A stretch of 64,000 bases of DNA from an uncultured Bacteroidota bacterium. GTDB taxonomy: Bacteria; Bacteroidota; Bacteroidia; Bacteroidales; UBA12481. Below the pieces are notes generated by a model, which saw nothing but the letters and a program-made list of their open reading frames with translations, searched no databases and was not told the DNA's origin. Location of the stretch: contig CAINOB010000082.1 of the NCBI GenBank assembly GCA_903851365.1, forward strand, positions 7,590 through 71,589. Reading direction: 5' to 3'. Each line of letters opens with the position of its first letter. Positions within the stretch are counted from its first letter, which is position 1. The translations under genes were made by a program, and so were the position numbers. Shown in pieces: positions 8,915 to 33,269 of the stretch.

Positions 8915-8948
8915 TTGAGAGGCTGAAAAAAGACGCAATTATGCGCCT

Positions 8949-14689: not shown

Positions 14690-14731
14690 AATAAGTATCA
14701 TTGTATTGAAGTTAATCCAAAGGTTAAGGTT

Positions 14732-15952: not shown

Positions 15953-15954
15953 AA

Positions 15955-15976
15955 AAGGCTCAATTTCTTGAGCCTT
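15955..15976 (+). terminator. hairpin after the REC-HK gene
   Basis: AAGGCTCAA-TTTC-TTGAGCCTT begins 3 nt after the stop codon. The downstream T-tract is weak. Confidence 0.5.
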
Positions 15977-15990
15977 CTGCCTTTCGGCGT

Positions 15991-16007
15991 GTACCCAGAG
16001 CCGGGGT
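15991..16007. repeat. att repeat, tRNA-distal copy (GTACCCAGAGCCGGGGT)
   Basis: Identical to 33185-33201. Confidence 0.85.
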
Positions 16008-16124
16008 ACCGTAACTATTATACAATATTTAACGTAAACATCACCATTGTTACATCTTTAGCCTTTATTCATTATTGTTTTTGAGAGGTTCGAGGTTATA
16101 AAAAACATGCAAAAGTTAACTGTT

Positions 16125-16148
16125 GACCGCACCTATGACCGCACCTAT
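16125..16148. repeat. subterminal tandem 12-mer GACCGCACCTAT x2
   Basis: Perfect tandem repeat. A related tandem, GACCGCACCTGT-CACCGCACCCAT, lies at 33107-33130 in the same orientation. Confidence 0.8.
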
Positions 16149-16156
16149 TCATATTA

Positions 16157-17464
16157 ATGTTAAATAGTAATACCATGCCAGGCTTAAAACCACAGTTCAA
16201 ACTTAAAGTTGCTAACAAGGAAGGCTTATCAATGATCTACCTTCGGGTTTATTACGAAGGGAAGCGATTGACCTATTACCTTCCTCTTTCCATTGACCCG
16301 AATCACTGGATTAAAGAGGAGCAACGCCCATTACTGTACAAAAAGGAATTTAAAACACCACCGCAGGATGGTACGATAAGGCAATATCAGGATATCAAAG
16401 ATCAATTAGACAGATATGGGACAGAAACGACAAGAATTTATGGCAATTTCCGCTACAACGGTCAAATTCCATCACCAAAACAGATGAAGGAGGAATTGGA
16501 CAAGGTATTTCGTAAACAACCTGACGAGGCTAAAATCCTTCTTTTCGGAGCCTTCATTGACGATTTCATCGCAAGGTCTAACAAGAAATCTAATACAATG
16601 AGGAATTATCACACTACCAAGAGGCATTTTGAAGCCTTTGAGAAAAAAACCGGCAAAAAGTATCGTCTGACCGAGATGGATCTGAATTTTTATGATGCGT
16701 TTGTCCGGTATTTCATGGAAAAACCTTCAAGCACAAATACTATCGGCACAAATATCAAGAATATCAAGGTCTTCCTGGCTGATGCTGATGATCGTGGTTA
16801 TGTGGTCAATCAGGATTTCCGCAAGAAACATTTTAAAACGGTTGAGGAAGATGCTGACACCATCTATCTCAACGAGGCGGAGATTGATGCCATCGCAAAC
16901 CTGAAACTAAAGCAAGATGGCAAATTGGATCGTGTCAGGGATTGGTTTGTCGTAGGATGCCTTACCGGATTGCGTTATTCAGACTACCATCAATTAAGAA
17001 AGGAAAACATTGAATCAGTTGATAACCGTTATATGTTAACCCTTCGTATGATCAAAACTGGCTTACCAATTTCTGTTCCTGTGAATCCGCAGGTATTGAA
17101 CATTCTTAATAAATATGTTTGGGATATGCCGAAGGTCCTGTCGAATCAGAAGACCAATGAATATTTAAAAGAGATAGCAGCAGCAGCAAAATTAAATAGT
17201 AAAGAACTGATTCATAGGACGAATGGCAATTTAAGACATGAAGAAACCTTGTTCAAGTGGCAACTGGTGTCAACTCATACCGCTCGCAGAAGTTTTGCCA
17301 CTAATGCTTATTATGCCGGAATCCCTACAATTAAAATAATGCTGATTACCGGTCATAAGACAGAGCGGTCATTTCTGAAATATATTCGCATAAAAACGAA
17401 GGAGAATGCGTTAGACCTGATTGACCATCCGTTTTTTACGCGAGAACTAAAACAGTCAGTGTAA
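16157..17464 (+). CDS. site-specific tyrosine recombinase/integrase (Bacteroidota type with an N-terminal arm-binding domain)
   Basis: Catalytic signature GLRYSD, HTARRSFAT and GHKTERSFLKY (R...HxxR...H...Y). Lies adjacent to the att repeat. Confidence 0.9.
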   Translation: MLNSNTMPGLKPQFKLKVANKEGLSMIYLRVYYEGKRLTYYLPLSIDPNHWIKEEQRPLLYKKEFKTPPQDGTIRQYQDIKDQLDRYGTETTRIYGNFRYNGQIPSPKQMKEELDKVFRKQPDEAKILLFGAFIDDFIARSNKKSNTMRNYHTTKRHFEAFEKKTGKKYRLTEMDLNFYDAFVRYFMEKPSSTNTIGTNIKNIKVFLADADDRGYVVNQDFRKKHFKTVEEDADTIYLNEAEIDAIANLKLKQDGKLDRVRDWFVVGCLTGLRYSDYHQLRKENIESVDNRYMLTLRMIKTGLPISVPVNPQVLNILNKYVWDMPKVLSNQKTNEYLKEIAAAAKLNSKELIHRTNGNLRHEETLFKWQLVSTHTARRSFATNAYYAGIPTIKIMLITGHKTERSFLKYIRIKTKENALDLIDHPFFTRELKQSV

Positions 17465-17557: not shown

Positions 17558-18259
17558 TTAACTCTTTGCAGGCGTCTGAGTTGTTTGAGGAGTTTGAAGG
17601 TTATGAGGGTTTTCCCCCTTTATGGAATCTTTAACTATCTCAAACAATAAGGTTATCATAACACCCAAAACAACCAGGGCAAAACCTTTCCAAAATTCCT
17701 TTTTCCAAAACCTCTTTACTGAATTTTTATAGTTATTCAGTTCCTCCTCACAACCGTATATTTCATCGGAAATGTCTTTGAATGTACGTAGTTTTTCAAT
17801 ATACTCATTGAAAATTGGACTGAGATCAATTCCTGCATCCTTCTGACCCCGTAAATCCGCCATCTTAGTTACGAGTTTTCTAAGGGCACTCTTCTTCTGC
17901 GTATACTCAGGTATTACTGTATGGCAAACATCTGGTGGGAAGTTTTGTAGAAAATTCTCCAATTCATCTTTGGCAATTAAAACCTCACAATCATAGGTGT
18001 CAAAACCAGCGCGGTAAAAATGCCCCAAGGCCTTTTCAATATTGATTTTGAAGTAATTATCCTTATCTGCAGGGTTCGGATCAATTTTATTCCGGAAAAG
18101 GCTCATCACATGGTCTAAGGCATCCCTTTGTTCCTTTAGTAACTGAATGTTTACTTTGGTTTTGGGATCCAGACTTTCAACAAATAGTATGGCTCGTTTT
18201 AATTGATAGTACTCATGTATTAGAGCCTTAAGTGACGTAAGTTCTTCAGCATTAAACAT
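17558..18259 (-). CDS. hypothetical alpha-helical protein with a single C-terminal transmembrane helix
   Basis: 233-aa ORF. The hydrophobic segment GFALVVLGVMITLLFEIV lies near the C-terminus. No recognisable family. Confidence 0.5.
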   Translation of the reverse strand: MFNAEELTSLKALIHEYYQLKRAILFVESLDPKTKVNIQLLKEQRDALDHVMSLFRNKIDPNPADKDNYFKINIEKALGHFYRAGFDTYDCEVLIAKDELENFLQNFPPDVCHTVIPEYTQKKSALRKLVTKMADLRGQKDAGIDLSPIFNEYIEKLRTFKDISDEIYGCEEELNNYKNSVKRFWKKEFWKGFALVVLGVMITLLFEIVKDSIKGENPHNLQTPQTTQTPAKS

Positions 18260-18284: not shown

Positions 18285-18557
18285 TTAAGGCATACGTAAT
18301 TTTGCCATTTTCTTCTTGTAGTCGGCGTCCAATTCAAAGGTATCGAAGATATGCCCTCTTTTCAACGCTACATTACCCCGGATAACCATTTGGATAATAC
18401 CCCAAATCTTCATAACAGATGAAGTCGTGAGCGGTACATCTGAAAAACTGCCAAAAGGCATGCGATCAAGTTCTTCGATGGACGAAACGCCGGTCTGCTT
18501 GCAAATAATTTCATTGGCCTTGGGGGACAAGGTCAACAGCTTACCATTTTCCTTCAT
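18285..18557 (-). CDS. hypothetical small protein (90 aa from the ATG at 18557)
   Basis: ORF lies 25 nt upstream of the 233-aa ORF on the same strand. The TTG-extended track start was trimmed to the first ATG. Confidence 0.4.
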   Translation of the reverse strand: MKENGKLLTLSPKANEIICKQTGVSSIEELDRMPFGSFSDVPLTTSSVMKIWGIIQMVIRGNVALKRGHIFDTFELDADYKKKMAKLRMP

Positions 18558-18912
18558 GTTTACTGGTTTTGGGGTCTTATTTTTGAAATAACGCGCCAAA
18601 GTATACTTTATTAAATTTCCAAACAAATTTTTACTAAAGTATTTGAGCAATGTTTCCCTTTGAGGTTTAGCAGCTTAAATGAAATCGTCATGCTAAATTA
18701 AAACAACTCTGGGAAAGAATGAAATTAAAGTTATCAACAAGTGTATCAAAGAATTAACCCGTTGGTTGTAAAATGGATACCGTAACATGAACATTTTAAA
18801 ATAGATACCATAAATTCATTGATACATAAGGGTTTAGAATCCAAAAGTACGAGTTGGGCCTTGTCCAATTTATGACGCTATTAAAATAAACTCTTCCTCA
18901 ATAACCATAATA

Positions 18913-21900
18913 CTACCCCACCATCGGCCACTCCCTATACTGCCCCTCTGCCTGTTCAATAATCTCAACCAGAATTGCATTTAACTCTGTAATATCCACT
19001 TTTCCCCGGAGTTCTCTTTTAACAGCCAGTCGGATCGCTGCCCTGGCGTTCTCTTTCTTGTACCAGTCGATCTGGAGGTTTTTTCGAACTGCCTCCGTCA
19101 CGTTACGGACAATGTCTGCAATCAATCCGATATCCTGGATTGCACCTTTGTGATGGGCCAGTATATCGTAAAAGGCCAGTTCCTCTTCGCTTAAACCGAG
19201 TTCTTTCTTGCGGTGATCTTCTTCTTTGAGTTCTTTCGTCCTTTCTAATAATTCCAGTACAGTTGTATATGAGTCGAATGCATTCTTGTGGTATAATTCG
19301 ATAATTTTCTCCACCTGTTCCTTCAGCGAGGTATACTTAATGATGTTCTTCGACATCCGGTACTTGATTTCATTGTTCAGGATCTGCCTGAGCAATTCAA
19401 CTTTGATGGCAAGACCAGATTTCTTATCCTTTGCCCCAATCAGGAAATCATCATTGAGGATGGAAATATCCGGTTTTTCAACACCGGCCATGGCGTAGAT
19501 ATCGACAATCTCATCGGACTCAATGCTCCTCCTGACAAGATCCTTAATTCCCTCACCGGCCATGCGGGATGGACCCGGTGGATGTTTTAATTTCCGCACA
19601 CATACCCCAACGTGCTGAACGAAGATGATGTCGAGACTAATGTTATTTATTAAGGGATGTGAACTAACCATAGTGGTCAGCGCCGAAACCTTTTTCTCTA
19701 TCAGGAGAAAGTCCTCCGAAACCTGATCTTCCTTTACAATATGGTTTACTGCCCTGCTGACAAGCAATTGTTTATCTCCAGTAGACAAGGCTCTCCACCT
19801 CGAATAATCAAAACCATCTGGCCAAAAGGTATTGGCTAATCCCAATTGCTCCACTAATTCTGAGAATGCAGCATCCACATCAATTGTCACATCTCCCCGA
19901 CCTCCACCTTTTGTATATTTCTTGGTGGCATCCTTCAGCCGGTCCCCAATCCCAATGTAGTCAACTATGACTCCACCCGGTTTATCTCTGAATACCCGGT
20001 TAACCCTTGCTATGGACTGCATCAAGTTATGACCGTGCATAATTTTATCAATATACATGGCATGCACTGCCGGTGCATCAAATCCCGTCAACCACATATC
20101 CCGGACAATAACCAGTTTCAGTGGATCATCAGGATCTTTAAACCTGGATTTGACCGCCTCCTGACTTTCTGTGGTTCGTAAATGTTTGTTCCATGCTGGT
20201 GGATCGGTCGAGATGTTTCCGGTCATTACAACTGCAACCTCAGGGCAACCGGGGAGGGCGGTTATGGCATCATACATCCTTACGCAATTCCTCCTGCTCA
20301 TACACACGATCATTCCTTTCCCCGGAAGAATCGCATTTCTTTTCGTGAAATGTTCCAGAATGTCTGTTGCTACCTTGTTTACCCGCTCATAAGCTCCAGC
20401 GGCATCATCAATAGCGGCCCATTTCAGGTGGTTGGATTCATCGATCGGCAATCCTCTGACAATCTCTTCTGCCTCTTCATCGATCCCCTCATTGGATAAA
20501 TGCAGTTGAGCCAACCGTGGTTCATAATAAATGGGGACGGTAGCCTTGTCCTCGACAGCCTGTTTGATGTCATATACATGGATCGTTTCCCCGAACACTT
20601 CCCAGGTATCGGCATCTTTTAGATCCACTGGAGTGCCCGTAAATCCAATGAAGGATGCATTTGGGAGTGCGGTCCTGAGAAAAGATGCGAACCCATCCAA
20701 CAGGCCGTATTGGGTTCTGTGGGCCTCGTCAGCTATGACAATAATATTCTCCCGTGAAGATAATACAGGGTGCGTTATCTCCCGGTCACCATTTTCATCA
20801 GCTCTCAGCCGGAATTTCTCAATAGTTGAAAAGATAACCCCTCCACCTTCAGATGAAAGAAGCTCTCTTAGTTCAATAGTAGTCTTAGCATGCGAAATTG
20901 ATCCAGTGAGATCCTTGGCATAGATGAAGTTGTCGTATAACTGGCGATCAAGGTCGTTCCGGTCAACCTGCACAAGGATGGTAGGATTTCTGAGTTCAGG
21001 TAGTTGCCGAAGTATCCCAGTGAAGATGGCCATCGAAATACTTTTACCTGCTCCTTGGGTGTGCCAGATGACCCCGATACGCCCATCTCCTTTGGGTTTG
21101 ATTGCATCAAGAGTATGTTCTACTGCCGCCAGCACACCGAAAAATTGATGGTATTTTGCTCCTTTCTTGATCAGCGTTCCACTATGGTCTTCATGGAAAA
21201 TAAAATACCGGATATACGTTAGCAACCTTGGTTTCGGCAATAGTCCGAGTATCAGGGAATGCAAGGCATGACCATCTTCAACCGTCGTTTCGCCATCGAT
21301 CGACTTCCATGGTGCATACCACTCCCGACCGGATGAAAACATCCCCGACAAGGTTTCTGTTCCGTCAGAAATGACGGTCAGAGCATTATATTCAAAAAGT
21401 ATAGGGATATCCTCCCTGTAATGCTGTATTTGGTTGAAGGCATTATCGACCGTGGCTGTGGCATCAAATGGGTTCTTAAACTCAAATACAATGAGTGGGA
21501 TACCATTGATGAAGATGATCAGATCGGGCCTCCTTGCATTCTTTCCCTGTATGGAGAACTGATTGACACAAAGAAAATCGTTCTGCTCAGGGTTGGAATA
21601 ATTGATTGGGTAGATATGCTCTAAATGCAGATTGCCTGCCTTATCGGTCCATGAGTAGTCAATACCCGTGGACAATTTTAAGTGAAAATCCCGGTTCCGA
21701 TAATCCATATCACTTCCTTGATTGGACAGGAGTAGGAGCATGACCTCCATCACTTCCTTTTCGGGTAACTGAGGATAAGCCTCTGACAAATATGCATGAA
21801 ACCGATCCTCAAGAACAACACTTTTTAATGGTCTGGTGATGTCAGATCCATGGATATATGAGTAACCTGCTTGATTCAACCACTCAATGGCAGCCAATTC

Positions 21901-21927
21901 TACATCGGATTCGGTTAGTTTGTTCAC
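18913..21927 (-). CDS. hsdR: type I restriction enzyme R subunit
   Basis: The N-terminus ESDVELAAIEWL is typical of HsdR. Walker A HTQGAGKS, DEAH box VIADEAHRTQ and helicase C motifs are present. GTG start at 21927 in a GTGA overlap with the upstream ORF. Confidence 0.92.
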   Translation of the reverse strand: MNKLTESDVELAAIEWLNQAGYSYIHGSDITRPLKSVVLEDRFHAYLSEAYPQLPEKEVMEVMLLLLSNQGSDMDYRNRDFHLKLSTGIDYSWTDKAGNLHLEHIYPINYSNPEQNDFLCVNQFSIQGKNARRPDLIIFINGIPLIVFEFKNPFDATATVDNAFNQIQHYREDIPILFEYNALTVISDGTETLSGMFSSGREWYAPWKSIDGETTVEDGHALHSLILGLLPKPRLLTYIRYFIFHEDHSGTLIKKGAKYHQFFGVLAAVEHTLDAIKPKGDGRIGVIWHTQGAGKSISMAIFTGILRQLPELRNPTILVQVDRNDLDRQLYDNFIYAKDLTGSISHAKTTIELRELLSSEGGGVIFSTIEKFRLRADENGDREITHPVLSSRENIIVIADEAHRTQYGLLDGFASFLRTALPNASFIGFTGTPVDLKDADTWEVFGETIHVYDIKQAVEDKATVPIYYEPRLAQLHLSNEGIDEEAEEIVRGLPIDESNHLKWAAIDDAAGAYERVNKVATDILEHFTKRNAILPGKGMIVCMSRRNCVRMYDAITALPGCPEVAVVMTGNISTDPPAWNKHLRTTESQEAVKSRFKDPDDPLKLVIVRDMWLTGFDAPAVHAMYIDKIMHGHNLMQSIARVNRVFRDKPGGVIVDYIGIGDRLKDATKKYTKGGGRGDVTIDVDAAFSELVEQLGLANTFWPDGFDYSRWRALSTGDKQLLVSRAVNHIVKEDQVSEDFLLIEKKVSALTTMVSSHPLINNISLDIIFVQHVGVCVRKLKHPPGPSRMAGEGIKDLVRRSIESDEIVDIYAMAGVEKPDISILNDDFLIGAKDKKSGLAIKVELLRQILNNEIKYRMSKNIIKYTSLKEQVEKIIELYHKNAFDSYTTVLELLERTKELKEEDHRKKELGLSEEELAFYDILAHHKGAIQDIGLIADIVRNVTEAVRKNLQIDWYKKENARAAIRLAVKRELRGKVDITELNAILVEIIEQAEGQYREWPMVG

Positions 21928-22397
21928 GCCTTTTCTCTCCCAATTAAAATGAGGTGGAATCCATCAGATACCTTTTGTTTTGACACCAGCTTTTGATGCA
22001 TCGGCTTCTTTTTATATTGAACCAAGAGATTTACCAGGCGATTATCTGAACAAACGGCAGCGAGAAAGTCAAAATCATTCGGATTAATAGTACTTGCGAT
22101 ATCCCTTATTTTTGGCCTGAGGCTGGTCCTTTTAAAAATATCGCAACTGCCGGCAATTTTTTTTAATTTTTTAAAGGGGATATTGAACCTATGGATTATA
22201 GCATCCACTGATACTTCTTGTATTGATTCTCTATCGTTTTGCTTACGTTTTGAATACCGGGGTAATCTCTGCAATATCTCTTGCCTGTGTTGGGAAGTGC
22301 TGCCAATGGCAACCTTTTTTTTTGATTTTCGATTGCTCGCCAGGGCTACCTTTTGCATAGCCCCTTGTGAGACCTTATTTTGTCCTTGGTATACCAT
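21924..22397 (-). CDS. hypothetical basic protein embedded between hsdS and hsdR
   Basis: 157-aa ORF with a Lys/Arg-rich N-terminal half. Its stop overlaps the hsdR start codon (GTGA). Confidence 0.5.
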   Translation of the reverse strand: MVYQGQNKVSQGAMQKVALASNRKSKKKVAIGSTSQHRQEILQRLPRYSKRKQNDRESIQEVSVDAIIHRFNIPFKKLKKIAGSCDIFKRTSLRPKIRDIASTINPNDFDFLAAVCSDNRLVNLLVQYKKKPMHQKLVSKQKVSDGFHLILIGREKA

Positions 22398-22407
22398 GGA
22401 GATCTCT

Positions 22408-23652
22408 TTATAGCGGATGCTGCTCTACATCCTTGACCCGAATTTCGCCACTAATAAGTTTGGGGAGAAGGTAGTCACGTGTTTCCATTAATATTTTGTT
22501 TTCTCTATTATTATTCCAGATCTGATCCATTAGTGCCCCAATTTTGTCAGCGATTATCTTTTGATCCTGCTGTTGCGGCAAAACAATCTTAAATTCCCTA
22601 AAATCCTTTAATACAATACGTTGAATTACAGCACCCGTTACAATTGACTTTAGCCTTTCGTGAACAGAATCTGACTTTAATTGAAAATTCAATAAGTGGG
22701 GATTAAGTCTTCCATTCGGTCTTATTATCGCAATTGAAGATAATAGAACCAGATTCAGATCTTGTTCAACCACGAAAGAATATTTTAAGAAACTACCATC
22801 CTTTGCAATCAACAAATCATTTTTCAATGGTCTACATCCTTGATCTACTAAAGTTCGATAATCAGTATTGCTGATTCTTCTGCATGATTCTTCATTTATA
22901 TTCCAATCAGTCATGTCTTTAACGGATGCCATAGGCATTCCAATGTCCTGCGACTTCGGACTTAGATGTGCCCCATCAGTAATCTTGGATGAGACCTCTG
23001 ATAGTCTGGAAATCCCCCAATCCTTCGGTATCGGCCCCAATTCGCTATCAACAAATTCACCATCCCGGAACGGCCCAAAATCCACAAACCACTCCTTATA
23101 AATAGCCATCGCCATATCTTCAAGGGTCTTGTTCATCTCCAGGTTGAGTTCGATCTTGTCATCAAGGGTAGAGAGGATGGAAGTGATAATATGTTGTTCT
23201 TGGATAGGCGGTAAATCAATCTGAATTTCATCAAATGTGGATCTTGTAATTGTATCAAAGACACTACCATGAGAATGATTTTTGAGTTGATGGACTTTGT
23301 ATTTTAACAAATAATATAAATAATCATTACTTGCAAGCGTGTGTTTCGCCACTAACCCGTAACATGACTGATTGAAAGCCATTTCACCACTTAGCACCCC
23401 GATCTCCCCAACTGTTCCTCTGGCTGATACAATAACACTACCACAAGGCAAAATCCTTGTTGAAGAATGCTTCAAACCTTCCGCTGTGATACACTTTTCA
23501 GTTTTTATGATGTGTTTGGCATCCCCATGAAAATCAACAACACTAATCCATGGAATTGCACCATCCCAATATCTTTTGACGGTTGTCTTCGGTGTTCCAC
23601 CTCCGAATAAGTCAACGACTGCACTAATTGTGGTCTTATCCCAGTTTGTCAT
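22408..23652 (-). CDS. hsdS: type I restriction-modification specificity subunit
   Basis: 414 aa with two target-recognition halves separated and followed by conserved helical repeats (LPPIQEQHIITSILSTLDDKIELN, LPQQQDQKIIADKIGALMDQIWNN). Confidence 0.9.
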   Translation of the reverse strand: MTNWDKTTISAVVDLFGGGTPKTTVKRYWDGAIPWISVVDFHGDAKHIIKTEKCITAEGLKHSSTRILPCGSVIVSARGTVGEIGVLSGEMAFNQSCYGLVAKHTLASNDYLYYLLKYKVHQLKNHSHGSVFDTITRSTFDEIQIDLPPIQEQHIITSILSTLDDKIELNLEMNKTLEDMAMAIYKEWFVDFGPFRDGEFVDSELGPIPKDWGISRLSEVSSKITDGAHLSPKSQDIGMPMASVKDMTDWNINEESCRRISNTDYRTLVDQGCRPLKNDLLIAKDGSFLKYSFVVEQDLNLVLLSSIAIIRPNGRLNPHLLNFQLKSDSVHERLKSIVTGAVIQRIVLKDFREFKIVLPQQQDQKIIADKIGALMDQIWNNNRENKILMETRDYLLPKLISGEIRVKDVEQHPL

Positions 23653-23655
23653 TAT

Positions 23656-24456
23656 TTATAAGACAATTGTTGTTGAAGAATACTTTTTATCAGTTAGGCC
23701 AGATTTCACAATCCGAATTGTTGACGTACCAAAATATTTTTTGAGAAATGTGATAAAATGGTCCGCAGTAAACGATCCCAATCGATGATCCAGTACAATA
23801 GTTGTATTTTGGAATAACTCTAAAGGATCTATCTTCAAATCAATAAATGATTTGCGAGTCATAACATCACTTTTTTTAACAATAATAATTCTCCTCTCGT
23901 TTTCATACGCAAATGCATTGCGTTTGAATAAAAGTAGTTTTACTTGTTCTTCAATAATTTCGTTGTTCAGAATGGAATCTTTAAATCCGGGTAGGAGGCC
24001 TAACTCCTTCTTATGGGCATCGATGTTCTTCTGAAATTCATATTTAACTTTACCGATATAGATGGTTTCAATCGCTCTATTATTCAACAATTGGTCTTGT
24101 AGGTATTTAATTAATGCCTCGGATTGAACGCTTATTCTTACTCCATCATTATTCCTAATGTATGTGTACCAATACGCCTCACTGGAATATGTCCCCGTGA
24201 AACATAAACAATAAGCCCTGTCCCTCAAAGGCAACGTGTAATTTTTCTTACCAATTTTAAACTCAGCATTAAGAAAGTGTTTTTCAAAAGGATCATCCCA
24301 CTCAGTCGGGTTTGAAAATCGAATAGTCTTGCCCGACAGGATTTTGAGTAGTGATTCAAGGCTAATAAACCTATAAAGGTTAGTGGTTTCACTAACAAAT
24401 GTGGAATGATCAAATATTGATTTACCGATTGAGGTATAGATCAGATTCTTGACCAT
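23656..24456 (-). CDS. DUF2971-like protein embedded between hsdM and hsdS
   Basis: N-terminal LYRFISLESLLKILSGKTIRFSNPTEWDDPFE resembles the DUF2971 signature (lYrY...l...l.fs.p..fNDPfE). Gaps of 2-3 nt to both neighbours. Confidence 0.55.
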   Translation of the reverse strand: MVKNLIYTSIGKSIFDHSTFVSETTNLYRFISLESLLKILSGKTIRFSNPTEWDDPFEKHFLNAEFKIGKKNYTLPLRDRAYCLCFTGTYSSEAYWYTYIRNNDGVRISVQSEALIKYLQDQLLNNRAIETIYIGKVKYEFQKNIDAHKKELGLLPGFKDSILNNEIIEEQVKLLLFKRNAFAYENERRIIIVKKSDVMTRKSFIDLKIDPLELFQNTTIVLDHRLGSFTADHFITFLKKYFGTSTIRIVKSGLTDKKYSSTTIVL

Positions 24457-24458
24457 AC

Positions 24459-26048
24459 TTAATTAATAAAATTCTTAAAATTCTTTAATACAACCTCTTC
24501 GATTCTATGTGATTCGACAAATTGAGCAGAAAGTTTTTTACTTAGACTAATTATCTTTTCTTCAAAAGGAACTCCATCATCCACTGACTCTTCAGTTCCC
24601 ACATAAATACCAGGTGTTAATTTGTAATCTTGAGCCTTGACCATATCTAATGTCGCCACTCTACATAACCCTGCGATGTCCTCATAGTTTCCAGTCTTGG
24701 TCCGCCATTCGTGATAAACAGTTGAAATCTTTTGCACATCCTCATCACTAAAGACCTTCAGTTTCCTCGTAGCCATGGAACCCATTTTGGATGCATCAAT
24801 GAAAAGGATTTCTCCCTTCCTTTCCCGGAATCCATCTCTACCCTCACGGTTTTTGCTGAGGAAGAAAAGACAGGCCGGGATACCAGTAGTCATGAAAAGT
24901 TTTTCTGGGAGCCTGACAATGCAGTCGATAACCCCATTATCAACGAGGTATTGCCGCACAATCTTTTCACCGACTGTGTTAGTAGTCATCGCACCATTAG
25001 CCATTACGAATCCGGCCGTTCCCAAATCATTCAAGTGGGAAAAGAAGGTCTGCATCCACATAAAATTTGCATTCCCATCAGTGGTGTATTCAGTTCTTTT
25101 GCCAAATAGCCTTGGGTCATCATCAGCCAGATCCTCTGGATGCCATTGGGATACATTAAAAGGCGGATTGGCGATCACAAAGTCTGCCTTCAGGTCATGG
25201 AACTTATCGTCCAATAGCGAATCACCCACTTTGAGGTCAAAAGGTAGGTCCCTGAGTAATAAATTCATCTTGCACAACCTCAGAGTCCCTTCATAGCGAT
25301 CCTGACCATAAATCGAGATATCGCCTTTATTACCGCCGTGCTCCTGGATGAACTTCATCGATTGGACAAACATTCCGCCACTTCCACAGGCGGGGTCGAA
25401 GATCCGGCCATGAAATGGTTGTAACATCTCCACCAGGAGGCGAACGATAGATCCCGGTGTAAAGAATTGTCCGGCACCAGAACCTTCAGCCATTGCAAAC
25501 CGGCCGATATAGTATTCGTATATTCTGCCCAGGATATCTGATTCCGGGTTCTCCTTTTCAGAAAACTTCTTTTGTGAGAACAGGTTGATGATCCCGCCCG
25601 TTTGCCGTGCTGACAATTGGCTACGAACAAAGATCGGAGGTAGTATCCCTCTCAGGTTGGGATCAGTGTCAGCCAGGATATCATCGATGATGGTAAATGC
25701 CTTGTCAATCTTAACCTTGATATCATCCTGCTCGGCATTCTCTTGTAAAAACGCCCAGGTGGCCTCTGTGGGTAATTTAAAAACGTTCTTTGCCTTGTAT
25801 TCATCTGGATCATCCAGAACGTAGTCGATCTCTTTAGGATCTGTTGTATAATAGTGCGATTCCGGTTGCTGGACCAGTGCTGCTAATTCCTCCCGTCTCA
25901 TATCATATCGCTCCGACAGATGTTTGAGGAATAGCAAAGAGAGGACAAAATCTTTGTACTGGTTCTCGGCAACTGCTCCACGTAGTTCATTGGCGGCGGT
26001 CCAGAGTTCACGCTCGAAGTCGATGTCAGCCTTAACTTGTTTTGCCAT
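24459..26048 (-). CDS. hsdM: type I restriction-modification N6-adenine DNA methyltransferase subunit
   Basis: HsdM N-terminal helix (LWTAANELRG), AdoMet motif DPACGSGGM and catalytic NPPF (VIANPPFN). Confidence 0.92.
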   Translation of the reverse strand: MAKQVKADIDFERELWTAANELRGAVAENQYKDFVLSLLFLKHLSERYDMRREELAALVQQPESHYYTTDPKEIDYVLDDPDEYKAKNVFKLPTEATWAFLQENAEQDDIKVKIDKAFTIIDDILADTDPNLRGILPPIFVRSQLSARQTGGIINLFSQKKFSEKENPESDILGRIYEYYIGRFAMAEGSGAGQFFTPGSIVRLLVEMLQPFHGRIFDPACGSGGMFVQSMKFIQEHGGNKGDISIYGQDRYEGTLRLCKMNLLLRDLPFDLKVGDSLLDDKFHDLKADFVIANPPFNVSQWHPEDLADDDPRLFGKRTEYTTDGNANFMWMQTFFSHLNDLGTAGFVMANGAMTTNTVGEKIVRQYLVDNGVIDCIVRLPEKLFMTTGIPACLFFLSKNREGRDGFRERKGEILFIDASKMGSMATRKLKVFSDEDVQKISTVYHEWRTKTGNYEDIAGLCRVATLDMVKAQDYKLTPGIYVGTEESVDDGVPFEEKIISLSKKLSAQFVESHRIEEVVLKNFKNFIN

Positions 26049-26331
26049 GTGGGGTTGGATGGTGAGAAGATTTATCTGCCCGAAGGTACGAGTTTTCGGG
26101 GAAAGGGGTAGGACAAACCACGAATTTAGCCTCCTTGAGGGGACGGTGAGGTTTTGTTCCGGTTCCGTTGCAACAGAAATATCAGGCTATCACTGATGCC
26201 AAGGAAGAATTTGGGGAGTCAGTTAGAGCCGGAATCTGTTTATCGAGTTCCAGAAATTCTTGTATCAGTTCAAGGTAGCATAAGTTTTTAATAATGAAGT
26301 ATTTGGGTAGTAGTTAAATTCTAATGTGAAA

Positions 26332-27237
26332 TCATTCCTTTTCTTCAAAATCTAAAATCTGCTGACCACCAAAGGCTCTTGCAAAGTTTCTTTGAAAATG
26401 CAGCCATGTTGGAGATATTTTCATTAAAACAATGACCTGTTGGAGTTGTCCTTTTAGAATTGGGCTACCAATATCTTTTGTCATCCATTGATGAAATCTT
26501 GCAACGTAATTACCCGCTTCACTTTTGGGTGTTCTGATTTGTAATTCTTTTCGCAATTCTGGGGATAAAACATCATATATTATCGTGTTTGTAATTTTAC
26601 CTAAAACCTGTGGTCGTTTAACAGATAATGGATCATAGGTCCATCCTTTCAATCGGAATAGTTGTTTATAATATTCATCTGGAAATGTTTTTTCCCATGG
26701 AATCAATTCTTGACTAATGAAATGTGTAAGAAGTTCTCTGATTTCATTCCTTGATCTAACTTGTTGATATCCTGTTGCCTCATCAATTAATGCAATAATA
26801 CCAACCTTGGCGAACACCCTTGTAAGCATTTCACATTGTTCTGCAATAAGCAATAATTTAGGATACTTATTTAAGACTCCAGATTTTCTTGCCTCCAATA
26901 TAACATCGCACAACTTAGGTAAAATAATAGCATCATATCCTTGTGCAACCTTTCCACCTCTACCTGGACGAATAAAAGAAATGGGTGATTCAAGTTCAAT
27001 GGCTAACTCACTCGTTATGAAAGGCTTAATTATGGCATTATCTAATAATTTTTTCAGTATTGTACCATGGGCTTGTCCTAATCCTAATGCCGCTTGCATA
27101 CCTCTCCCAGATAGTACACGCTGCTTATTTTCAAGCACATAACAAGAAATATTGGTGTCATTAAGGTTTATGGGCTTTTTAATCGATCCATGGGTTGCCC
27201 GTAAAATCGAATCGGTTTTATTAACGTCTTTTTTCAT
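26332..27237 (-). CDS. hypothetical protein, possibly P63C-domain (phage-associated) family
   Basis: 301 aa. The N-terminal pattern THGS...I.CYVLENKQRVLSGRGMQAALGL recalls P63C-domain proteins. This is from memory only. Confidence 0.35.
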   Translation of the reverse strand: MKKDVNKTDSILRATHGSIKKPINLNDTNISCYVLENKQRVLSGRGMQAALGLGQAHGTILKKLLDNAIIKPFITSELAIELESPISFIRPGRGGKVAQGYDAIILPKLCDVILEARKSGVLNKYPKLLLIAEQCEMLTRVFAKVGIIALIDEATGYQQVRSRNEIRELLTHFISQELIPWEKTFPDEYYKQLFRLKGWTYDPLSVKRPQVLGKITNTIIYDVLSPELRKELQIRTPKSEAGNYVARFHQWMTKDIGSPILKGQLQQVIVLMKISPTWLHFQRNFARAFGGQQILDFEEKE

Positions 27238-27314: not shown

Positions 27315-27794
27315 TTAATGTATTTGTTCACCCCCCCGCTCTTGCCCTTCTTCTAATGTTTTATCCAAGTGATGATCTTTGTTGGTCCCTCCAACATAGG
27401 CTTCAGCGGTTTCATTGATTTCTTCTAAAAATGCACCGTACACTATTTTTGCTTTTCTGATCCTCATCATCATTAACCAAGCAGTATCTTTCGTCACTTC
27501 GATATCACGGGCAAATTGTCTTACGGAAATTCCTTTTTTTGCATCTAAAATTATGGAAATGGCTAAGAACCATTTTTGAATATCTAACTTGGAATTATGG
27601 AAAACGGTTCCAACTGTAACACTAAAAGAAGTATTACAATTATTACAATGGTATCTTAATTCCTTTGAGACTGGTGTTGTTTTGGTCGAATTACAATATG
27701 GGCATTGAGCAACATTATTCCATCTCACTTTTTCCAGATGTCTTATGCAACTTGAATGATCTGGGAACTGCTTGTATATTTGGACTAAACTCAT
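27315..27794 (-). CDS. IS1595-family transposase N-terminal region only (zinc ribbon + HTH); DDE domain absent
   Basis: FPDHSSCIRHLEKVRWNN.AQCPYCNS...YHCNNCNTSFSVTVGTVFHNSKLDIQKWF...ISVRQFARDIEVTKDTAW matches the IS1595/ISXO2-like N-terminus. The ORF stops shortly after EAYVGG, where the DDE domain should begin. Confidence 0.6.
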   Translation of the reverse strand: MSLVQIYKQFPDHSSCIRHLEKVRWNNVAQCPYCNSTKTTPVSKELRYHCNNCNTSFSVTVGTVFHNSKLDIQKWFLAISIILDAKKGISVRQFARDIEVTKDTAWLMMMRIRKAKIVYGAFLEEINETAEAYVGGTNKDHHLDKTLEEGQERGGEQIH

Positions 27795-27930: not shown

Positions 27931-28490
27931 ATGAAAACACCAAAACCTTATTGCATTGAACCAAAGAATATCAGAGCATTTGTTTTAGGTTGCGATCCCA
28001 CCGGTTTTGGTAAACATTATGACCAGATAGAATTTGAAACCGTTTTCGGAATAGGGAAAGATGCTCGATACTTTGCTGGCATTGAACCCAATCTTAAATT
28101 ATTGGGCCTCAACAAGGGCCAAATCTACGTCCAGAACATGGTAACCGAATACCAGGATGAAGGATCTTCAAAAACCAAAAATTGGATTTCCAATGCCGAG
28201 AAGTTTATTGGCCCCAGGCTTGCTGAATTTGATCTGGTTTATCCGCTCCGGATAACGCCTGTATTTTTAACATCGAAATTGTTGTACAAGGCTCTCTTGA
28301 ATAGGTTGGAGAAACCTTATTCTGCAAAAGAACTGTATAATCTGCCGATGATTATTCCAATTCCGGCAACCACCAATTCGCTCTTTCTGCCACTATCCCT
28401 TTGTATAGACACCCTGCATATTCGTTGAAAATCAATGTTGAATATGCTCAAAGGATTAAGACCTGGATGAATAAGGTGGCCAACCCTTAA
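27931..28490 (+). pseudogene. UDG-superfamily (family 4-like) protein, apparently frameshifted near 28375-28385
   Basis: The track ORF (27931-28428) has AFVLGCDPTG...YFAG...LGLNKGQIYVQNMV, laid out like UDG motif A and its downstream region. The adjacent frame (28341-28490) encodes ...IPLYRHPAYSLKINVEYAQRIKTWMNKVANP, resembling family-4 motif B (tYHPAyLLR). Confidence 0.45.
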
Positions 28491-28518
28491 AATCGGTATG
28501 TGAATATTAAAGGGAAGA

Positions 28519-28878
28519 CTAATTCAACCCAATTACCCAATCTTCGCTATACTTATTTTCCAGTATGATCCTGGCAAGAAAAAAGGCTTCGTAACGACCG
28601 GTATCTGGACGTGGGCATAGGTTGTTAAAACGCAACAGAACTACCCTGGGGTTCACAATGACCGTCACTGCTCCAGCCTGTTTACTTTGCCGGCTGAAAA
28701 CGTTTTGGTGATAATCCAAATGGTGCAATTTGTTATAATGAATCCGATGGTTGGGGTAAGGATCCTGGTCATTACCAAAAAAAAGGTCTGGATCAATGCC
28801 GTGTTTGGATAACTGGTCAATTAATTTTTTTGAAGGCAAGTTGTCTTCGGGGTGATCTTTGGGATTGAACGGAATCAT
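28519..28878 (-). CDS. hypothetical protein (119 aa from the ATG at 28878)
   Basis: ORF only, His/Pro/Asp-rich N-terminal half, no recognisable family. Confidence 0.35.
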   Translation of the reverse strand: MIPFNPKDHPEDNLPSKKLIDQLSKHGIDPDLFFGNDQDPYPNHRIHYNKLHHLDYHQNVFSRQSKQAGAVTVIVNPRVVLLRFNNLCPRPDTGRYEAFFLARIILENKYSEDWVIGLN

Positions 28879-29217
28879 TGTGCGAAGGTTAGGTAGCCTT
28901 GTACGGTGAAACAGGTTTCTTTGTTGCAAAATCTAACCGCGTCATTTTTCGGCAGACTCTGGGATACTAAATGATGATACAACCTTGGTTAAGGAAAATT
29001 CACGTATCTTGGATTAACTAAAATTTTAAGAATAGAACAGACATAAAAGTGTTGAAATAGAATATATTGGACTTTTGGTAACTCTCACATCCGAAACCGC
29101 CAGATCAGATTTCCGAGGAGTTAACCATTTGACCACGCATGGCGTGGGCTTTGGTTTACTTCGGAAATGGTGCCTGGCGGCGCCTGGATGCGGGTAAATC
29201 GGGTCCACGTTCTGCTT

Positions 29218-30087: not shown

Positions 30088-30145
30088 AGAATTGGAGAAA
30101 GGATAAAACAACATGGAAAGTGCCGGACTACTTAATGCTTGATGA

Positions 30146-30943: not shown

Positions 30944-30957
30944 TGTGACTCTCGTCT

Positions 30958-31245
30958 TTATGCTGGTCCAAGACTGCCAGGCCCTTCAATCAGGAATTTA
31001 GTAAAGAGTTCCTCCTCTTTGTTTGTCGTTCCAACAGGCATTTCCAGGTCTTTCAGTTTTGGAATCACAAAGGGCAACATGCGAATAATTGCGTCCAGCC
31101 GCTCTTTTGGGGTCATGAGATTTAAAGTTTGGTCTAATTGATCCAATTCAGTGGATACGGCAGATTTCAGGACTTCCCTGACATCCTTTGTTAGTTTATT
31201 CGGAGTTCCGGCTTGCCGGCCACCTGTTTTATTCTTTTTGTTCAT
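30958..31245 (-). CDS. hypothetical small basic protein of the island replication/maintenance module
   Basis: 95 aa. The N-terminal KNKTGGRQAGTPNKLTK motif is common in small phage or plasmid proteins. Lies downstream of the Rep-like gene. Confidence 0.4.
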   Translation of the reverse strand: MNKKNKTGGRQAGTPNKLTKDVREVLKSAVSTELDQLDQTLNLMTPKERLDAIIRMLPFVIPKLKDLEMPVGTTNKEEELFTKFLIEGPGSLGPA

Positions 31246-31263
31246 GGTCTATTCCTTTCTACT

Positions 31264-33106: not shown

Positions 33107-33130
33107 GACCGCACCTGTCACCGCACCCAT
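33107..33130. repeat. subterminal tandem 12-mers GACCGCACCTGT-CACCGCACCCAT
   Basis: Related to 16125-16148, same orientation, ~54 bp inside the tRNA-proximal att repeat. Confidence 0.75.
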
Positions 33131-33184: not shown

Positions 33185-33201
33185 GTACCCAGAGCCGGGG
33201 T
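33185..33201. repeat. att repeat, tRNA-proximal copy (GTACCCAGAGCCGGGGT)
   Basis: Identical to 15991-16007 and overlaps the 3' 16 nt of tRNA-Leu. Confidence 0.85.
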
Positions 33202-33269
33202 CGAACCGGCACAACATTGCTGTTACTGGTGTTTGAGACCAGCGCGTCTACCAATTCCGCCATCTGGGC
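33186..33269 (-). tRNA. tRNA-Leu (anticodon CAA), class II with a long variable arm
   Basis: The reverse complement folds as GCCCAGA acceptor / TCTGGGT-A, D-arm GGCGGAATTGGTAGACGC, anticodon stem-loop CTGGT-CTCAAAC-ACCAG, long variable arm and T-arm GGTTCGACCCC. No encoded CCA. Confidence 0.9.

What the first reader, a model, noticed from the sequence alone, without database searches (positions are those of the whole stretch)
18913..26048. Type I R-M operon expanded to five tightly coupled genes by two non-R-M inserts
The order on the minus strand is hsdM, DUF2971-like (266 aa), hsdS, basic orf157, hsdR. The intergenic gaps are 2, 3 and 10 nt, and the last junction is a GTGA stop/start overlap. 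That spacing implies one transcript and translational coupling. Canonical type I systems need only M, S and R. Genes wedged inside hsd operons are an established way in which back-up defence effectors travel (the PrrC and RloC anticodon nucleases, Abi-type genes). Neither inserted protein has a function I can name, so this five-gene block may be a composite R-M-plus-effector system.
Basis: partly seen in the sequence, partly recalled or inferred. Interest (0 to 1): 0.75.

Follow-up and report, generated by a model that had tools for sequence, protein, structure and literature searches.

The report
Restriction operon with two embedded passengers
A DNA-restriction operon on a mobile island carries two extra genes between its subunit genes: one belongs to an already catalogued family of DarT-like candidate anti-phage enzymes and the other is a tiny orphan gene of unknown role, so this is a new example of a known pattern, not a new kind of system.

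Summary
On the minus strand, hsdM, a 266-aa gene, hsdS, a 157-aa gene and hsdR lie 2, 3 and 10 nt apart, and the last pair overlaps by 4 nt (GTGA).

The 266-aa insert can be named. It is a DUF2971 protein and matches PADLOC candidate PDC-S31 (E 1.7e-41). PDC families were defined from genes embedded in BREX, DISARM and type I R-M systems. Its model (pLDDT 82.5) matches DarT DNA ADP-ribosyltransferases best, and it keeps the residues invariant across the family alignments. One DUF2971 protein, Aristaios, is experimentally anti-phage.

In relatives of this HsdR, the same two junctions are either empty or hold GmrSD-like, Mokosh-like, KAP NTPase, AbiH or Schlafen genes. They act as cargo slots.

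orf157 is a statistically real ORF, but it is an orphan. Only one 92%-identical relative turned up in 1.84 billion cluster representatives. It has no domain and no usable fold, and there is no clear sign of purifying selection. It is not a partner of DUF2971.

The operon sits on a 17.2-kb island integrated at tRNA-Leu.

Verdict: a new member of a known kind ("defence embedded in type I R-M"). Interest is modest, and only orf157 remains open.

The parts
24459..26048 (-). hsdM, type I methyltransferase subunit (529 aa), first gene of the block
   Evidence: Pfam N6_Mtase 2e-93 and HsdM_N 9.4e-18. PADLOC MTase_I 2.4e-144. The NPPF motif is visible in the translation. DNA is 88% identical to L095 hsdM up to window 24559, 100 nt before the stop.
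23656..24456 (-). Insert 1 in the M-S junction: DUF2971 / PADLOC PDC-S31 protein (266 aa), predicted DarT-like ADP-ribosyltransferase fold
   Evidence: PF11185 at 28.3 bits (cut-off 22). PDLC04993 PDC-S31 E 1.7e-41. AF2 model pLDDT 82.5, pTM 0.81. The top five Foldseek PDB hits are all DarT, prob 0.96-0.99. Conserved residues D55, P56, E58, W96, Y99, Y139, K178, E185, E187 and R189 are retained. GC is 34%, against 45% in hsdM and hsdR.
22408..23652 (-). hsdS, specificity subunit (414 aa, two target-recognition domains)
   Evidence: Pfam Methylase_S 8.6e-42 with two stretches. PADLOC Specificity_I 9.6e-83. In L009 the second TRD is unrelated, while the last ~55 nt and everything downstream are conserved.
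21924..22397 (-). Insert 2 in the S-R junction: orf157, a basic orphan ORF (pI 10.45) of unknown function
   Evidence: The ORF fills the whole S-R interval: 0 of 20000 shuffles give an open frame that long, and the codon log-ratio is positive only in the annotated frame. The only relative is P0002/L009 at 92% aa identity. No Pfam, PADLOC, NCBIfam, PHROG or PDB match. AF2 pLDDT 47. dN/dS 0.48 with differences 6/4/7 by codon position.
18913..21927 (-). hsdR, restriction/translocase subunit (1004 aa), GTG start overlapping the orf157 stop (GTGA)
   Evidence: Pfam HSDR_N, SWI2_SNF2, T1R_D3-like and T1RH-like_C. TIGR00348 2.8e-163. The HSDR_N match starts at residue 3, so the GTG start is right. 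dN/dS 0.04 against L009.
26049..26331 (-). 283-nt upstream non-coding region, the only sizeable gap before hsdM; presumed promoter region of the block (inferred)
   Evidence: Sequence read. No other intergenic gap longer than 10 nt lies inside the block. The consensus scan is uninformative.
15991..16007 (+). Left copy of the 17-bp direct repeat GTACCCAGAGCCGGGGT, the left end of the island that carries the operon
   Evidence: Exact two-copy repeat, 0 expected by chance. It lies next to the tyrosine integrase at 16157-17464.
16157..17464 (+). Tyrosine integrase of the island (Arm-DNA-bind_5, Phage_int_SAM_5 and Phage_integrase domains)
   Evidence: Pfam hits.
33185..33269 (-). tRNA-Leu(CAA). 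Its 3' end (33185-33201) is the right copy of the 17-bp repeat, the right end of the island
   Evidence: ARAGORN, Rfam tRNA 53.8 bits, repeat.

Best explanation
A ~17.2-kb island integrated at tRNA-Leu, probably in a Bacteroidota genome, carries an intact type I restriction-modification operon whose two inter-subunit junctions serve as cargo slots.

The M-S slot holds a PDC-S31/DUF2971 gene. Its product is predicted to be a DarT-like, NAD+-dependent ADP-ribosyltransferase. I propose that it acts on its own as a latent second-line abortive-infection effector. When a phage escapes restriction, it would ADP-ribosylate a nucleic-acid target (ssDNA is the best guess) or a protein target and stop replication, as proposed for Aristaios and shown for DarT. 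Embedding gives it co-inheritance and co-expression with the R-M genes from the promoter upstream of hsdM. It does not imply physical integration into the enzyme.

The S-R slot is the position PrrC occupies in EcoprrI and DarTG2 occupies in EPEC. Here it holds orf157, a recently acquired, lineage-restricted gene for a small basic protein. It is most likely a real but young passenger gene. My best guess is a nucleic-acid-binding accessory or regulator, but its function is not established.

What is shown: the gene order, spacing and intactness; family membership; the fold; slot variability among relatives; the island borders. What is inferred: a single transcript, translational coupling, enzymatic activity and target, the defence phenotype, and any role of orf157.
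For: Gene order, gaps and domains.

Insert 1:
- It matches PDC-S31 at E 1.7e-41. PDC models were built from gene families with at least one member embedded in BREX, DISARM or type I R-M (Payne et al.).
- DUF2971 was independently predicted to be a DarT/AbiGi-like ART (PMC12522546).
- Aristaios, a 316-aa DUF2971 protein, gives phage resistance with an abortive-infection phenotype (PMC11381338).
- The AF2 model (pLDDT 82.5) has DarT as its five best PDB matches, followed by Tpt1/KptA and an ART toxin.
- The Y and ExE motif residues are kept.

Slots:
- L095 (HsdR 96% aa identity) has PDC-S31 just upstream of hsdM and a GmrSD-like gene between S and R.
- L096 is plain M-S-R with 0-4 nt between the genes.
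- L097 has a KAP NTPase between M and S.
- L098 has MkoA and MkoB before hsdR.
- L082 reads hsdM, PDC-S31, hsdS, MBL, unknown, AbiH, hsdR.
- L059 reads SIR2, PDC-S31, hsdS.
- L027 has Schlafen/AlbA_2 between S and R.
- DNA homology to L095 stops at 24559 and resumes at 21921, the start of hsdR, so the slot contents were exchanged as cassettes.

Context of PDC-S31 relatives: immediate neighbours in 80 genomes include SIR2/pAgo partners, Mokosh, Hhe, bSEFIR, Lamassu, DRT, Abi_alpha, AbiJ and several other PDCs.

Autonomy of insert 1: 76 of 80 relatives have no homolog of the window's hsd genes within 8 kb, and plasmid homologs sit beside EcsC or other genes.

orf157: the ORF is not a chance event, its codon usage fits the frame, its frame survives 17 substitutions and a 3-nt indel in L009, and its GC differs from hsdR.

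Island.
Against: - There is no experimental evidence for this locus. ADP-ribosyltransferase activity has not been shown biochemically for any DUF2971 protein in the papers read.
- The DarT match is at fold level only. TM-scores are 0.35-0.46 and E is about 1e-3. Profiles of the family find nothing in the PDB by sequence. The motif-I histidine is replaced by R/K.
- No antitoxin or macrodomain is present, so how a toxic ART would be kept silent while translated alongside HsdM and HsdS is unexplained.
- Only 3-4 of 80 relatives lie near homologs of the window's hsd genes. By my rough estimate this is about 8-fold above a ~0.5% background, which is a small number.
- The hsd-linked PDC-S31 proteins are only 21-26% identical to the window's protein.
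- For orf157, dN/dS is 0.48 with no third-position bias (6/4/7) on 17 differences. This is statistically indistinguishable from neutral drift. It has no homolog, domain or confident fold.
- Co-transcription was not tested.
Confidence: 0.68

Rival explanations
1. orf157 is not a functional gene. It is a decaying or accidental reading frame left in the S-R slot by cassette exchange, and only the DUF2971 gene is a true passenger.
For: It is an orphan: only one 92%-identical relative among 5.8 billion proteins and 1.84 billion representatives. No domain appears even at E<=10. AF2 pLDDT is 47. dN/dS is 0.48 with differences spread 6/4/7 over codon positions. The N-terminal 60 residues are low-complexity and basic.
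Against: A 157-codon open frame that fills the interval exactly, starts 10 nt after hsdS and overlaps the hsdR start never arose in 20000 shuffles. Codon usage favours that frame. The frame survives 17 substitutions, and the one indel is a multiple of three. Plain relatives have only 4 nt between S and R, so the DNA was imported and has been kept.
Confidence: 0.3
2. A PrrC-like guard model. One or both inserts bind the HsdMSR complex physically, are kept latent by it, and are released when a phage anti-restriction protein (Ocr- or Stp-like) disables the enzyme. The five genes would then form one integrated machine.
For: orf157 sits in the slot that PrrC occupies in EcoprrI (own knowledge; Payne et al. 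note that PrrC is found almost only inside type I R-M). The tight spacing suggests stoichiometric co-production. PDC-S31 recurs next to this hsd family in L095, L027, L059 and L082.
Against: 76 of 80 PDC-S31 relatives have no homolog of the window's hsd genes within 8 kb, and their positions relative to hsd genes vary: upstream of M, or between M and S. orf157 is absent from every other hsd locus examined. Neither insert has the ABC-ATPase or anticodon-nuclease features of PrrC/RloC. Aristaios works when cloned alone.
Confidence: 0.1
3. The DUF2971 protein is not anti-phage here. It would be a toxin serving island maintenance (addiction) or inter-bacterial or host-directed antagonism, as suggested for Legionella DUF2971 'effectors', and its place in the operon would be incidental.
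For: PMC12522546 predicts that about 18% of DUF2971 proteins are secreted effectors and finds varied operon contexts. The Klebsiella plasmid homologs sit next to EcsC and Ter genes, not next to recognisable defence genes.
Against: The window protein hits the embedded-gene-derived PDC-S31 model strongly. Its relatives' neighbours are rich in known defence genes. The one tested family member is anti-phage. No secretion-system or immunity gene is nearby.
Confidence: 0.1

Closest known systems
PADLOC phage defence candidate PDC-S31 (Payne et al. 2024, 'guilt-by-embedding')
   Same: The 266-aa protein matches model PDLC04993 at E 1.7e-41 over nearly its full length. It is a single gene, on the same strand as the system it sits in, and embedded in a type I R-M operon. 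That is the criterion used to define PDC families.
   Different: PDC-S31 is only a candidate and no phenotype has been reported for it. A full-text search found no paper that mentions it. The window protein is divergent, at most 36% identical to any relative found.
Aristaios (Lactococcus plasmid pUCCL641, 316 aa, DUF2971)
   Same: It shares the Pfam family PF11185 and is a single-gene system. An ADP-ribosyltransferase fold is predicted, and it gives experimental phage resistance with an abortive-infection phenotype.
   Different: Aristaios is plasmid-borne and is not reported to lie inside an R-M operon. No Lactococcus hit appeared in the tblastn of plasmids at E<=1e-3, so the relationship holds only at family level. 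The two sequences were not compared directly.
DarTG2 embedded between hsdS and hsdR in EPEC E2348/69 (RRDM island)
   Same: An ART-fold effector inside a type I R-M operon on a horizontally acquired island. DarT is the best structural match of the window protein.
   Different: DarT has a cognate macrodomain antitoxin, DarG, and an upstream repressor, RptR. No macrodomain or RptR-like gene is present here. There is no sequence-level similarity to DarT. The slot also differs: M-S here, S-R in EPEC.
PrrC / EcoprrI (and RloC)
   Same: An extra gene sits between hsdS and hsdR, on the same strand and tightly packed. This is the classic precedent for an R-M-embedded back-up effector, and orf157 occupies that slot.
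   Different: PrrC is a ~400-aa ABC-ATPase-like anticodon nuclease. orf157 is 157 aa with no P-loop and no nuclease domain, and the DUF2971 protein has an ART fold.
TgvAB (GmrSD-like type IV system embedded in the Vibrio cholerae VPI-2 type I R-M)
   Same: A five-gene cluster made of three hsd genes plus two embedded genes. It is shown experimentally that the embedded genes defend independently of HsdR activity. The near-identical relative L095 carries a GmrSD-like gene in the S-R slot.
   Different: TgvA and TgvB are adjacent and act together. The two inserts here sit in different slots, are unrelated to GmrSD, and do not co-occur elsewhere.

Membership tests
Type I restriction-modification system | HsdM with the N6-adenine methyltransferase domain and NPPF motif | tested here: met
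   PF02384 2e-93 and PF12161. 'ANPPFN' is visible in the translation.
Type I restriction-modification system | HsdS with two target-recognition domains | tested here: met
   PF01420 with two stretches, 414 aa. PADLOC Specificity_I 9.6e-83.
Type I restriction-modification system | HsdR with an N-terminal PD-(D/E)xK nuclease, an SF2 ATPase motor (Walker A, DEAH) and a C-terminal assembly domain | tested here: met
   PF04313, PF18766, PF22679 and PF11867. TIGR00348 2.8e-163. GAGKS, DEAH and PD...EFK are visible.
Type I restriction-modification system | Restriction and methylation activity | not testable with these tools
   Needs methylome sequencing and restriction assays.
DUF2971 (PF11185) / PADLOC PDC-S31 | Sequence match above the curated threshold of the family models | tested here: met
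   PF11185 at 28.3 bits against a cut-off of 22. PDLC04993 E 1.7e-41, residues 23-257.
DUF2971 (PF11185) / PADLOC PDC-S31 | Conserved core motifs (W-D-P-F-E; W..Y; K-R..F..E-x-E-x-R), proposed as the ART motifs II and III | tested here: met
   D55, P56, E58, W96, Y99, Y139, K178, E185, E187 and R189 are conserved in the 111-sequence and 8-sequence alignments. Motif I is R29 here (K in most members, not H).
DUF2971 (PF11185) / PADLOC PDC-S31 | ADP-ribosyltransferase-like fold | tested here: met
   AF2 pLDDT 82.5, pTM 0.81. Foldseek PDB top five are DarT, prob 0.96-0.99, with modest TM 0.35-0.46.
DUF2971 (PF11185) / PADLOC PDC-S31 | Embedded in, or next to, defence systems | tested here: met
   It is embedded here. 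It is linked to hsd genes in L027, L059, L082 and L095. Neighbours in the other loci include many known defence proteins.
DUF2971 (PF11185) / PADLOC PDC-S31 | Anti-phage phenotype and NAD+-dependent transferase activity | not testable with these tools
   Only Aristaios has a reported phenotype. No biochemistry was found.
DarTG toxin-antitoxin | DarT-family sequence signature | tested here: not met
   No DarT family in the Pfam or NCBIfam hits. Family profiles find no PDB sequence at E<=10. The similarity is at fold level only.
DarTG toxin-antitoxin | Adjacent macrodomain antitoxin DarG | tested here: not met
   No macrodomain in any of the five genes or in the flanking genes. The neighbours of 80 relatives show no recurrent partner.
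PrrC / RloC anticodon nucleases | ABC-ATPase-like N-domain (Walker A/B) fused to a C-terminal anticodon nuclease domain, ~400 aa or larger | tested here: not met
   Neither insert hits any ATPase or PrrC/RloC model in Pfam, NCBIfam or PADLOC. Their sizes are 266 and 157 aa.
PrrC / RloC anticodon nucleases | Location between hsdS and hsdR of a type I operon | tested here: met
   orf157 occupies that slot. Position alone does not confer membership.
Toxin-antitoxin pair formed by the two inserts | Conserved co-occurrence of the two genes | tested here: not met
   orf157 is absent from all 85 other loci that hold PDC-S31 or related hsd genes (tblastn).

The most novel reading that the evidence does not exclude
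orf157 is a genuinely new, very young small basic protein that works with the restriction enzyme from the PrrC/DarTG slot. It could be a nucleic-acid-binding sensor or regulator of HsdR that reports or compensates for phage anti-restriction. That would make it a case of a defence accessory gene caught near its birth.
Probability: 0.1. Interest if true: 0.65.

Novelty: new member of a known kind. Interest (0 to 1): 0.33.

Why it matters
The locus adds a clean, intact example to the growing picture that the junctions of type I R-M operons act as exchange slots for second-line defence genes. This one HsdR clade offers a natural series: empty junctions, GmrSD-like, Mokosh-like, KAP NTPase, PDC-S31 and orf157. 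The series could be used to study how cassettes are swapped at gene boundaries. It could also test whether embedded effectors gain anything from co-expression with R-M.

The DUF2971/PDC-S31 family is widespread. One paper puts it at about 6000 species. It has been shown to be anti-phage in only one case and has never been characterised biochemically, so a DarT-like enzyme without an antitoxin is a worthwhile target. This particular copy, however, is not special.

orf157 matters only if it proves functional. It would then be an example of the large unexplained fraction of embedded genes: more than half of the genes embedded in type I R-M have no assigned role according to Payne et al..

Tried and rejected
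1. Homology for orf157. All searches were negative apart from the 92% twin in L009:
- Pfam (also at E<=10), PADLOC, NCBIfam and PHROGs
- PDB sequences
- the 5.8-billion word-indexed search
- the full HMMER search of 1.84 billion representatives
- IMG/VR viral contigs
- tblastn against all 99 fetched loci
- AF2 on the single sequence (pLDDT 47) followed by Foldseek (best E 0.8)

2. orf157 as a remnant of the GmrSD-like gene that fills the same slot in L095. BLASTP gave E 7.6, so this was rejected.

3. orf157 as antitoxin or partner of the DUF2971 protein. It never co-occurs with PDC-S31 elsewhere, so this was rejected.

4. A structured RNA or regulatory element in the orf157 interval. There was no Rfam hit. 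The folding z-score was -2.1, with 4 of 100 shuffles folding as well. Not convincing.

5. Internal promoters or terminators. The counts equal the shuffle expectation, and the sigma-70 consensus is probably inappropriate for Bacteroidota anyway.

6. An hsdS shufflon or inverted repeats. Nothing beyond short chance-level repeats was found.

7. A single-sequence search for DUF2971 relatives found only the protein itself. Homologs had to be reached through tblastn of plasmids and a profile.

8. Population variation. All 8 fetched contigs that carry orf157 are at least 99.99% identical to the window, so they give no polymorphism data.

9. PrrC/RloC and DarTG membership. Defining features are not met (see the membership table).

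Full report
**1. The observation**

The ORF list and the junction sequences confirm five co-directional genes on the minus strand:

| Gene | Coordinates | Product |
|---|---|---|
| hsdM | 24459-26048 | 529 aa |
| 266-aa ORF | 23656-24456 | 266 aa |
| hsdS | 22408-23652 | 414 aa |
| orf157 | 21924-22397 | 157 aa |
| hsdR | 18913-21927 | 1004 aa, GTG start |

The gaps between them are 2, 3 and 10 nt, and the last junction is a 4-nt GTGA overlap.

The three hsd genes look complete.
- HsdM has N6_Mtase (2e-93) and HsdM_N.
- HsdS has two Methylase_S stretches.
- HsdR has HSDR_N, SWI2_SNF2, T1R_D3-like and T1RH-like_C, and matches TIGR00348 at 2.8e-163.
- The NPPF, GAGKS, DEAH and PD...EFK motifs are visible in the translations.

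A consensus scan finds no more terminator-like or promoter-like sites inside the block than shuffles give. The only sizeable non-coding stretch is the 283 nt upstream of hsdM. A single transcript and translational coupling therefore fit the data, but they remain inferences.

**2. Insert 1, the 266-aa gene in the M-S junction**

It passes the Pfam threshold for DUF2971 (28.3 bits against 22). It also hits PADLOC model PDLC04993, 'PDC-S31', at E 1.7e-41 over residues 23-257.

The paper behind PADLOC's PDC models explains what that means (bioRxiv 10.1101/2024.01.29.577857). PDC families were derived by 'guilt-by-embedding' from genes found inside BREX, DISARM and type I R-M systems.

Two other papers bear on it.
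- A bioinformatic survey assigns DUF2971 to the ADP-ribosyltransferase superfamily, closest to DarT, AbiGi and Tox-ART-HYD1. It describes a conserved Tyr, an ExE motif and a poorly conserved motif-I His (PMC12522546).
- A functional screen of lactococcal plasmids found that Aristaios, a single 316-aa DUF2971 gene, gives phage resistance with an abortive-infection phenotype (PMC11381338).

My own tests agree.
- An AF2 model built on a 111-sequence alignment is confident (pLDDT 82.5, pTM 0.81).
- Its five best PDB matches are all DarT: Thermus 7omw, 7omy, 7omv and 7omx, and M. tuberculosis 7yk3, with prob 0.96-0.99.
- Next come Tpt1/KptA nucleic-acid ADP-ribosylating enzymes and an Rhs ART toxin.
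- TM-scores are modest (0.35-0.46), and no PDB sequence is found by profile search. The link is at fold level only.
- The window protein keeps the conserved residues D55, P56, E58, W96, Y99, Y139, K178, E185, E187 and R189, and has R29 at the motif-I position.
- Phage-encoded proteins share the fold (PHROG 1762 at 5.7e-14; BFVD hits with prob 1.0).

**3. Where relatives of insert 1 live**

A single-sequence search found only the protein itself. I therefore seeded a profile with plasmid homologs found by tblastn and collected 80 genomic loci from many phyla. The closest relatives (31-36% identity) are in Flavobacteriales, Coprobacter, other Bacteroidota and Pedobacter.

Only three of the 80 loci have clear type I genes (homologs of the window's HsdM, HsdS or HsdR by phmmer) within 8 kb:
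- L082, Muribaculaceae: hsdM, PDC-S31, hsdS, MBL-fold, unknown, AbiH, hsdR
- L059: SIR2, PDC-S31, hsdS
- L027, Kiritimatiellae: PDC-S31 and a 279-aa gene upstream of hsdM, hsdS, Schlafen/AlbA_2, hsdR

A fourth locus, L036, is ambiguous.

With a rough background of 0.5% (my estimate, not a tool result), 3-4 of 80 is about an 8-fold excess, but the number is small. The hsd-linked copies are only 21-26% identical to the window's protein.

The immediate neighbours in the other loci are heterogeneous but rich in known defence proteins. They include SIR2/pAgo partners, MkoA, Hhe, bSEFIR, LmuB, DRT reverse transcriptases, Abi_alpha, AbiJ, KAP NTPase, nSTAND3 and several other PDCs. No partner gene recurs.

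Klebsiella plasmid homologs sit beside EcsC near the Ter cluster.

My reading is that this is an autonomous single-gene module that frequents defence islands and is sometimes dropped into hsd operons.

**4. The junctions are cargo slots in this HsdR clade**

Close relatives of the window's HsdR in metagenomes show the pattern directly.

| Locus | HsdR identity | M-S junction | S-R junction | Other |
|---|---|---|---|---|
| L095 | 96% aa | empty | 736-aa GmrSD-like gene (PADLOC Orf5 6.5e-170, HEC-06 7e-62) | 225-aa PDC-S31 gene immediately upstream of hsdM |
| L096 | 74% | empty | empty | plain M-S-R, 0-4 nt between genes |
| L097 | 61% | 1253-aa KAP NTPase | empty | |
| L098 | 66% | not resolved | MkoA-like and MkoB-like genes, immediately upstream of hsdR | only hsdS-like fragments, and no hsdM, were detected upstream of the pair |

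DNA homology between the window and L095 runs through hsdM to 24559, 100 nt before its stop. It reappears in the central conserved part of hsdS, then resumes at 21921, six bases into hsdR. Whatever sits in the slots has therefore been exchanged at gene boundaries.

This matches published cases:
- DarTG2 between hsdS and hsdR in EPEC (PMC12255303)
- TgvAB inside the Vibrio VPI-2 type I cluster (PMC11411939)
- PrrC, which is found almost exclusively inside type I systems

**5. Insert 2, orf157**

It is a real open frame in the statistical sense.
- No shuffle of the 484-nt interval gave 157 or more open codons on that strand (0 of 20000; the 99.9th percentile is 122).
- Codon usage favours the annotated frame.
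- Plain relatives have only 4 nt between hsdS and hsdR, so the DNA was imported. Its GC content is 39.5%, against 45.5% in hsdR.

The protein is basic (pI 10.45), with a low-complexity N-terminal third.

Every homology route failed. The only relative is P0002 on contig L009, at 92% identity. The single-sequence AF2 model is unusable (pLDDT 47), and Foldseek found nothing with it.

The comparison with L009 shows the following.
- There are 17 substitutions, spread 6/4/7 over the codon positions. dN/dS is 0.48, which is not distinguishable from neutral.
- There is one in-frame 3-nt indel in an A-run.
- dS is 0.06 in orf157 and 0.49 in the adjoining hsdR (dN/dS 0.04). The hsdS TRD just upstream is unrelated.
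- The orf157 segment is therefore either much younger than its flanks, which would fit cassette mobility, or constrained at the DNA level.

An RNA element is not supported. There is no Rfam hit and the folding z-score is -2.1.

orf157 is not a remnant of the L095 GmrSD-like gene. It never accompanies PDC-S31 elsewhere, so it is not that gene's antitoxin.

I put the chance that it is a real expressed gene at about 0.7, and the chance that it has a defence-related role at about 0.3. My best guess for a function is nucleic-acid binding or regulation.

**6. Context**

The block is cargo of a ~17.2-kb island.
- The island is bounded by an exact 17-bp direct repeat at 15991-16007 and 33185-33201. 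The second copy is the 3' end of tRNA-Leu(CAA).
- A tyrosine integrase of the Arm-DNA-bind_5/SAM_5 type lies at the left end.
- A second 21-nt repeat lies just inside each end.
- The same island, at 99.99-100% identity, occurs in the 8 contigs fetched from several metagenomes; 14 contigs in all carry the identical orf157 protein.
- Most other island genes have no Pfam family.

**7. Mechanism proposed**

*Shown:* an intact type I system with two foreign genes in its junctions, on a mobile island. One of them belongs to a DarT-like ART-fold family that has one validated anti-phage member.

*Inferred:*
- The block is transcribed from upstream of hsdM.
- The R-M enzyme restricts unmethylated DNA.
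- The DUF2971 protein stays latent until an infection proceeds. It then uses NAD+ to ADP-ribosylate DNA (by analogy with DarT) or another target, aborting the infection.
- Embedding provides linkage and co-regulation rather than a physical complex, because most relatives are not linked to hsd genes.
- How the enzyme is kept silent without an antitoxin is unknown.

**8. Verdict**

The locus is a new member of a known kind: defence genes embedded in type I R-M. Insert 1 is already catalogued as PDC-S31. Insert 2 is an unexplained orphan whose functional status is open. Interest is modest.

Noticed in passing
window 15991-16007 and 33185-33201; tRNA-Leu(CAA) 33185-33269 (-); integrase 16157-17464 (+): The hsd block lies on a ~17.2-kb integrative island. 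The island is bounded by an exact 17-bp direct repeat that is the 3' end of tRNA-Leu(CAA), and a Bacteroidota-type tyrosine integrase sits at the left end.
   Followed up: partly
window 16125-16145 and 33107-33127: A second repeat, GACCGCACCTRTSACCGCACC (itself an internal tandem of ACCGCACC), lies just inside each island end. These could be arm-type integrase binding sites.
   Followed up: no
window 17558-18259 (-) and 18285-18650 (-): Two Pfam-less ORFs (233 aa with a C-terminal hydrophobic helix, and 121 aa) lie downstream of hsdR on the same strand, after a 262-nt gap. They could be another small cargo module. Relatives carry different genes there, for example a RES-domain gene in L096.
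   Followed up: no
window 27931-32652: The right arm of the island consists of ORFs of 165, 136, 306, 265 and 462 aa. Four of them (165, 306, 265, 462 aa) appear among the called genes of the matching contigs with no precomputed Pfam family; the 136-aa ORF was called there as a shorter gene on the opposite strand. They are unexplored island cargo.
   Followed up: no
window 26332-27237 (-) and 27315-27794 (-): A P63C-domain protein (phrog_2384, E 1.3e-89) lies directly upstream of hsdM on the same strand. Next to it is a truncated IS1595 transposase (zinc ribbon plus the first 89 of 215 DDE-domain positions).
   Followed up: no
window 21864-22463 compared with L009: The orf157 segment is 96% identical to L009 (dS 0.06), while the adjoining hsdR is about 90% identical (dS 0.49) and the hsdS TRD2 is unrelated. 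This looks like a mosaic made by recombination around the S-R slot.
   Followed up: partly
window 22590-22616 and 24467-24493: A 27-nt direct repeat (85% identity) links the 3' end of hsdM (encoding ...VLKNFKNF) to a segment of hsdS (...VLKDFREF). hsdM homology to L095 ends 100 nt before the hsdM stop. This may be a footprint of the cassette insertion, or chance.
   Followed up: no
L082 (Muribaculaceae MAG) 2526-16493: A heavily loaded type I operon: UvrD/PD-(D/E)xK helicase, hsdM, PDC-S31, hsdS, MBL-fold protein, unknown 305-aa protein, AbiH, hsdR. Four passenger genes sit inside one hsd operon.
   Followed up: partly
L013 (Aliarcobacter faecis plasmid pAFAEC) 5947-7630: Two different DUF2971 genes lie in tandem next to DUF262 (GmrSD_N-type) genes. 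Paralogous DUF2971 subfamilies co-occur in one defence-like region.
   Followed up: no
window 9224-15952 (+): An 1821-aa PAS-rich sensor protein and a 406-aa hybrid response-regulator/histidine kinase lie immediately outside the left end of the island.
   Followed up: no
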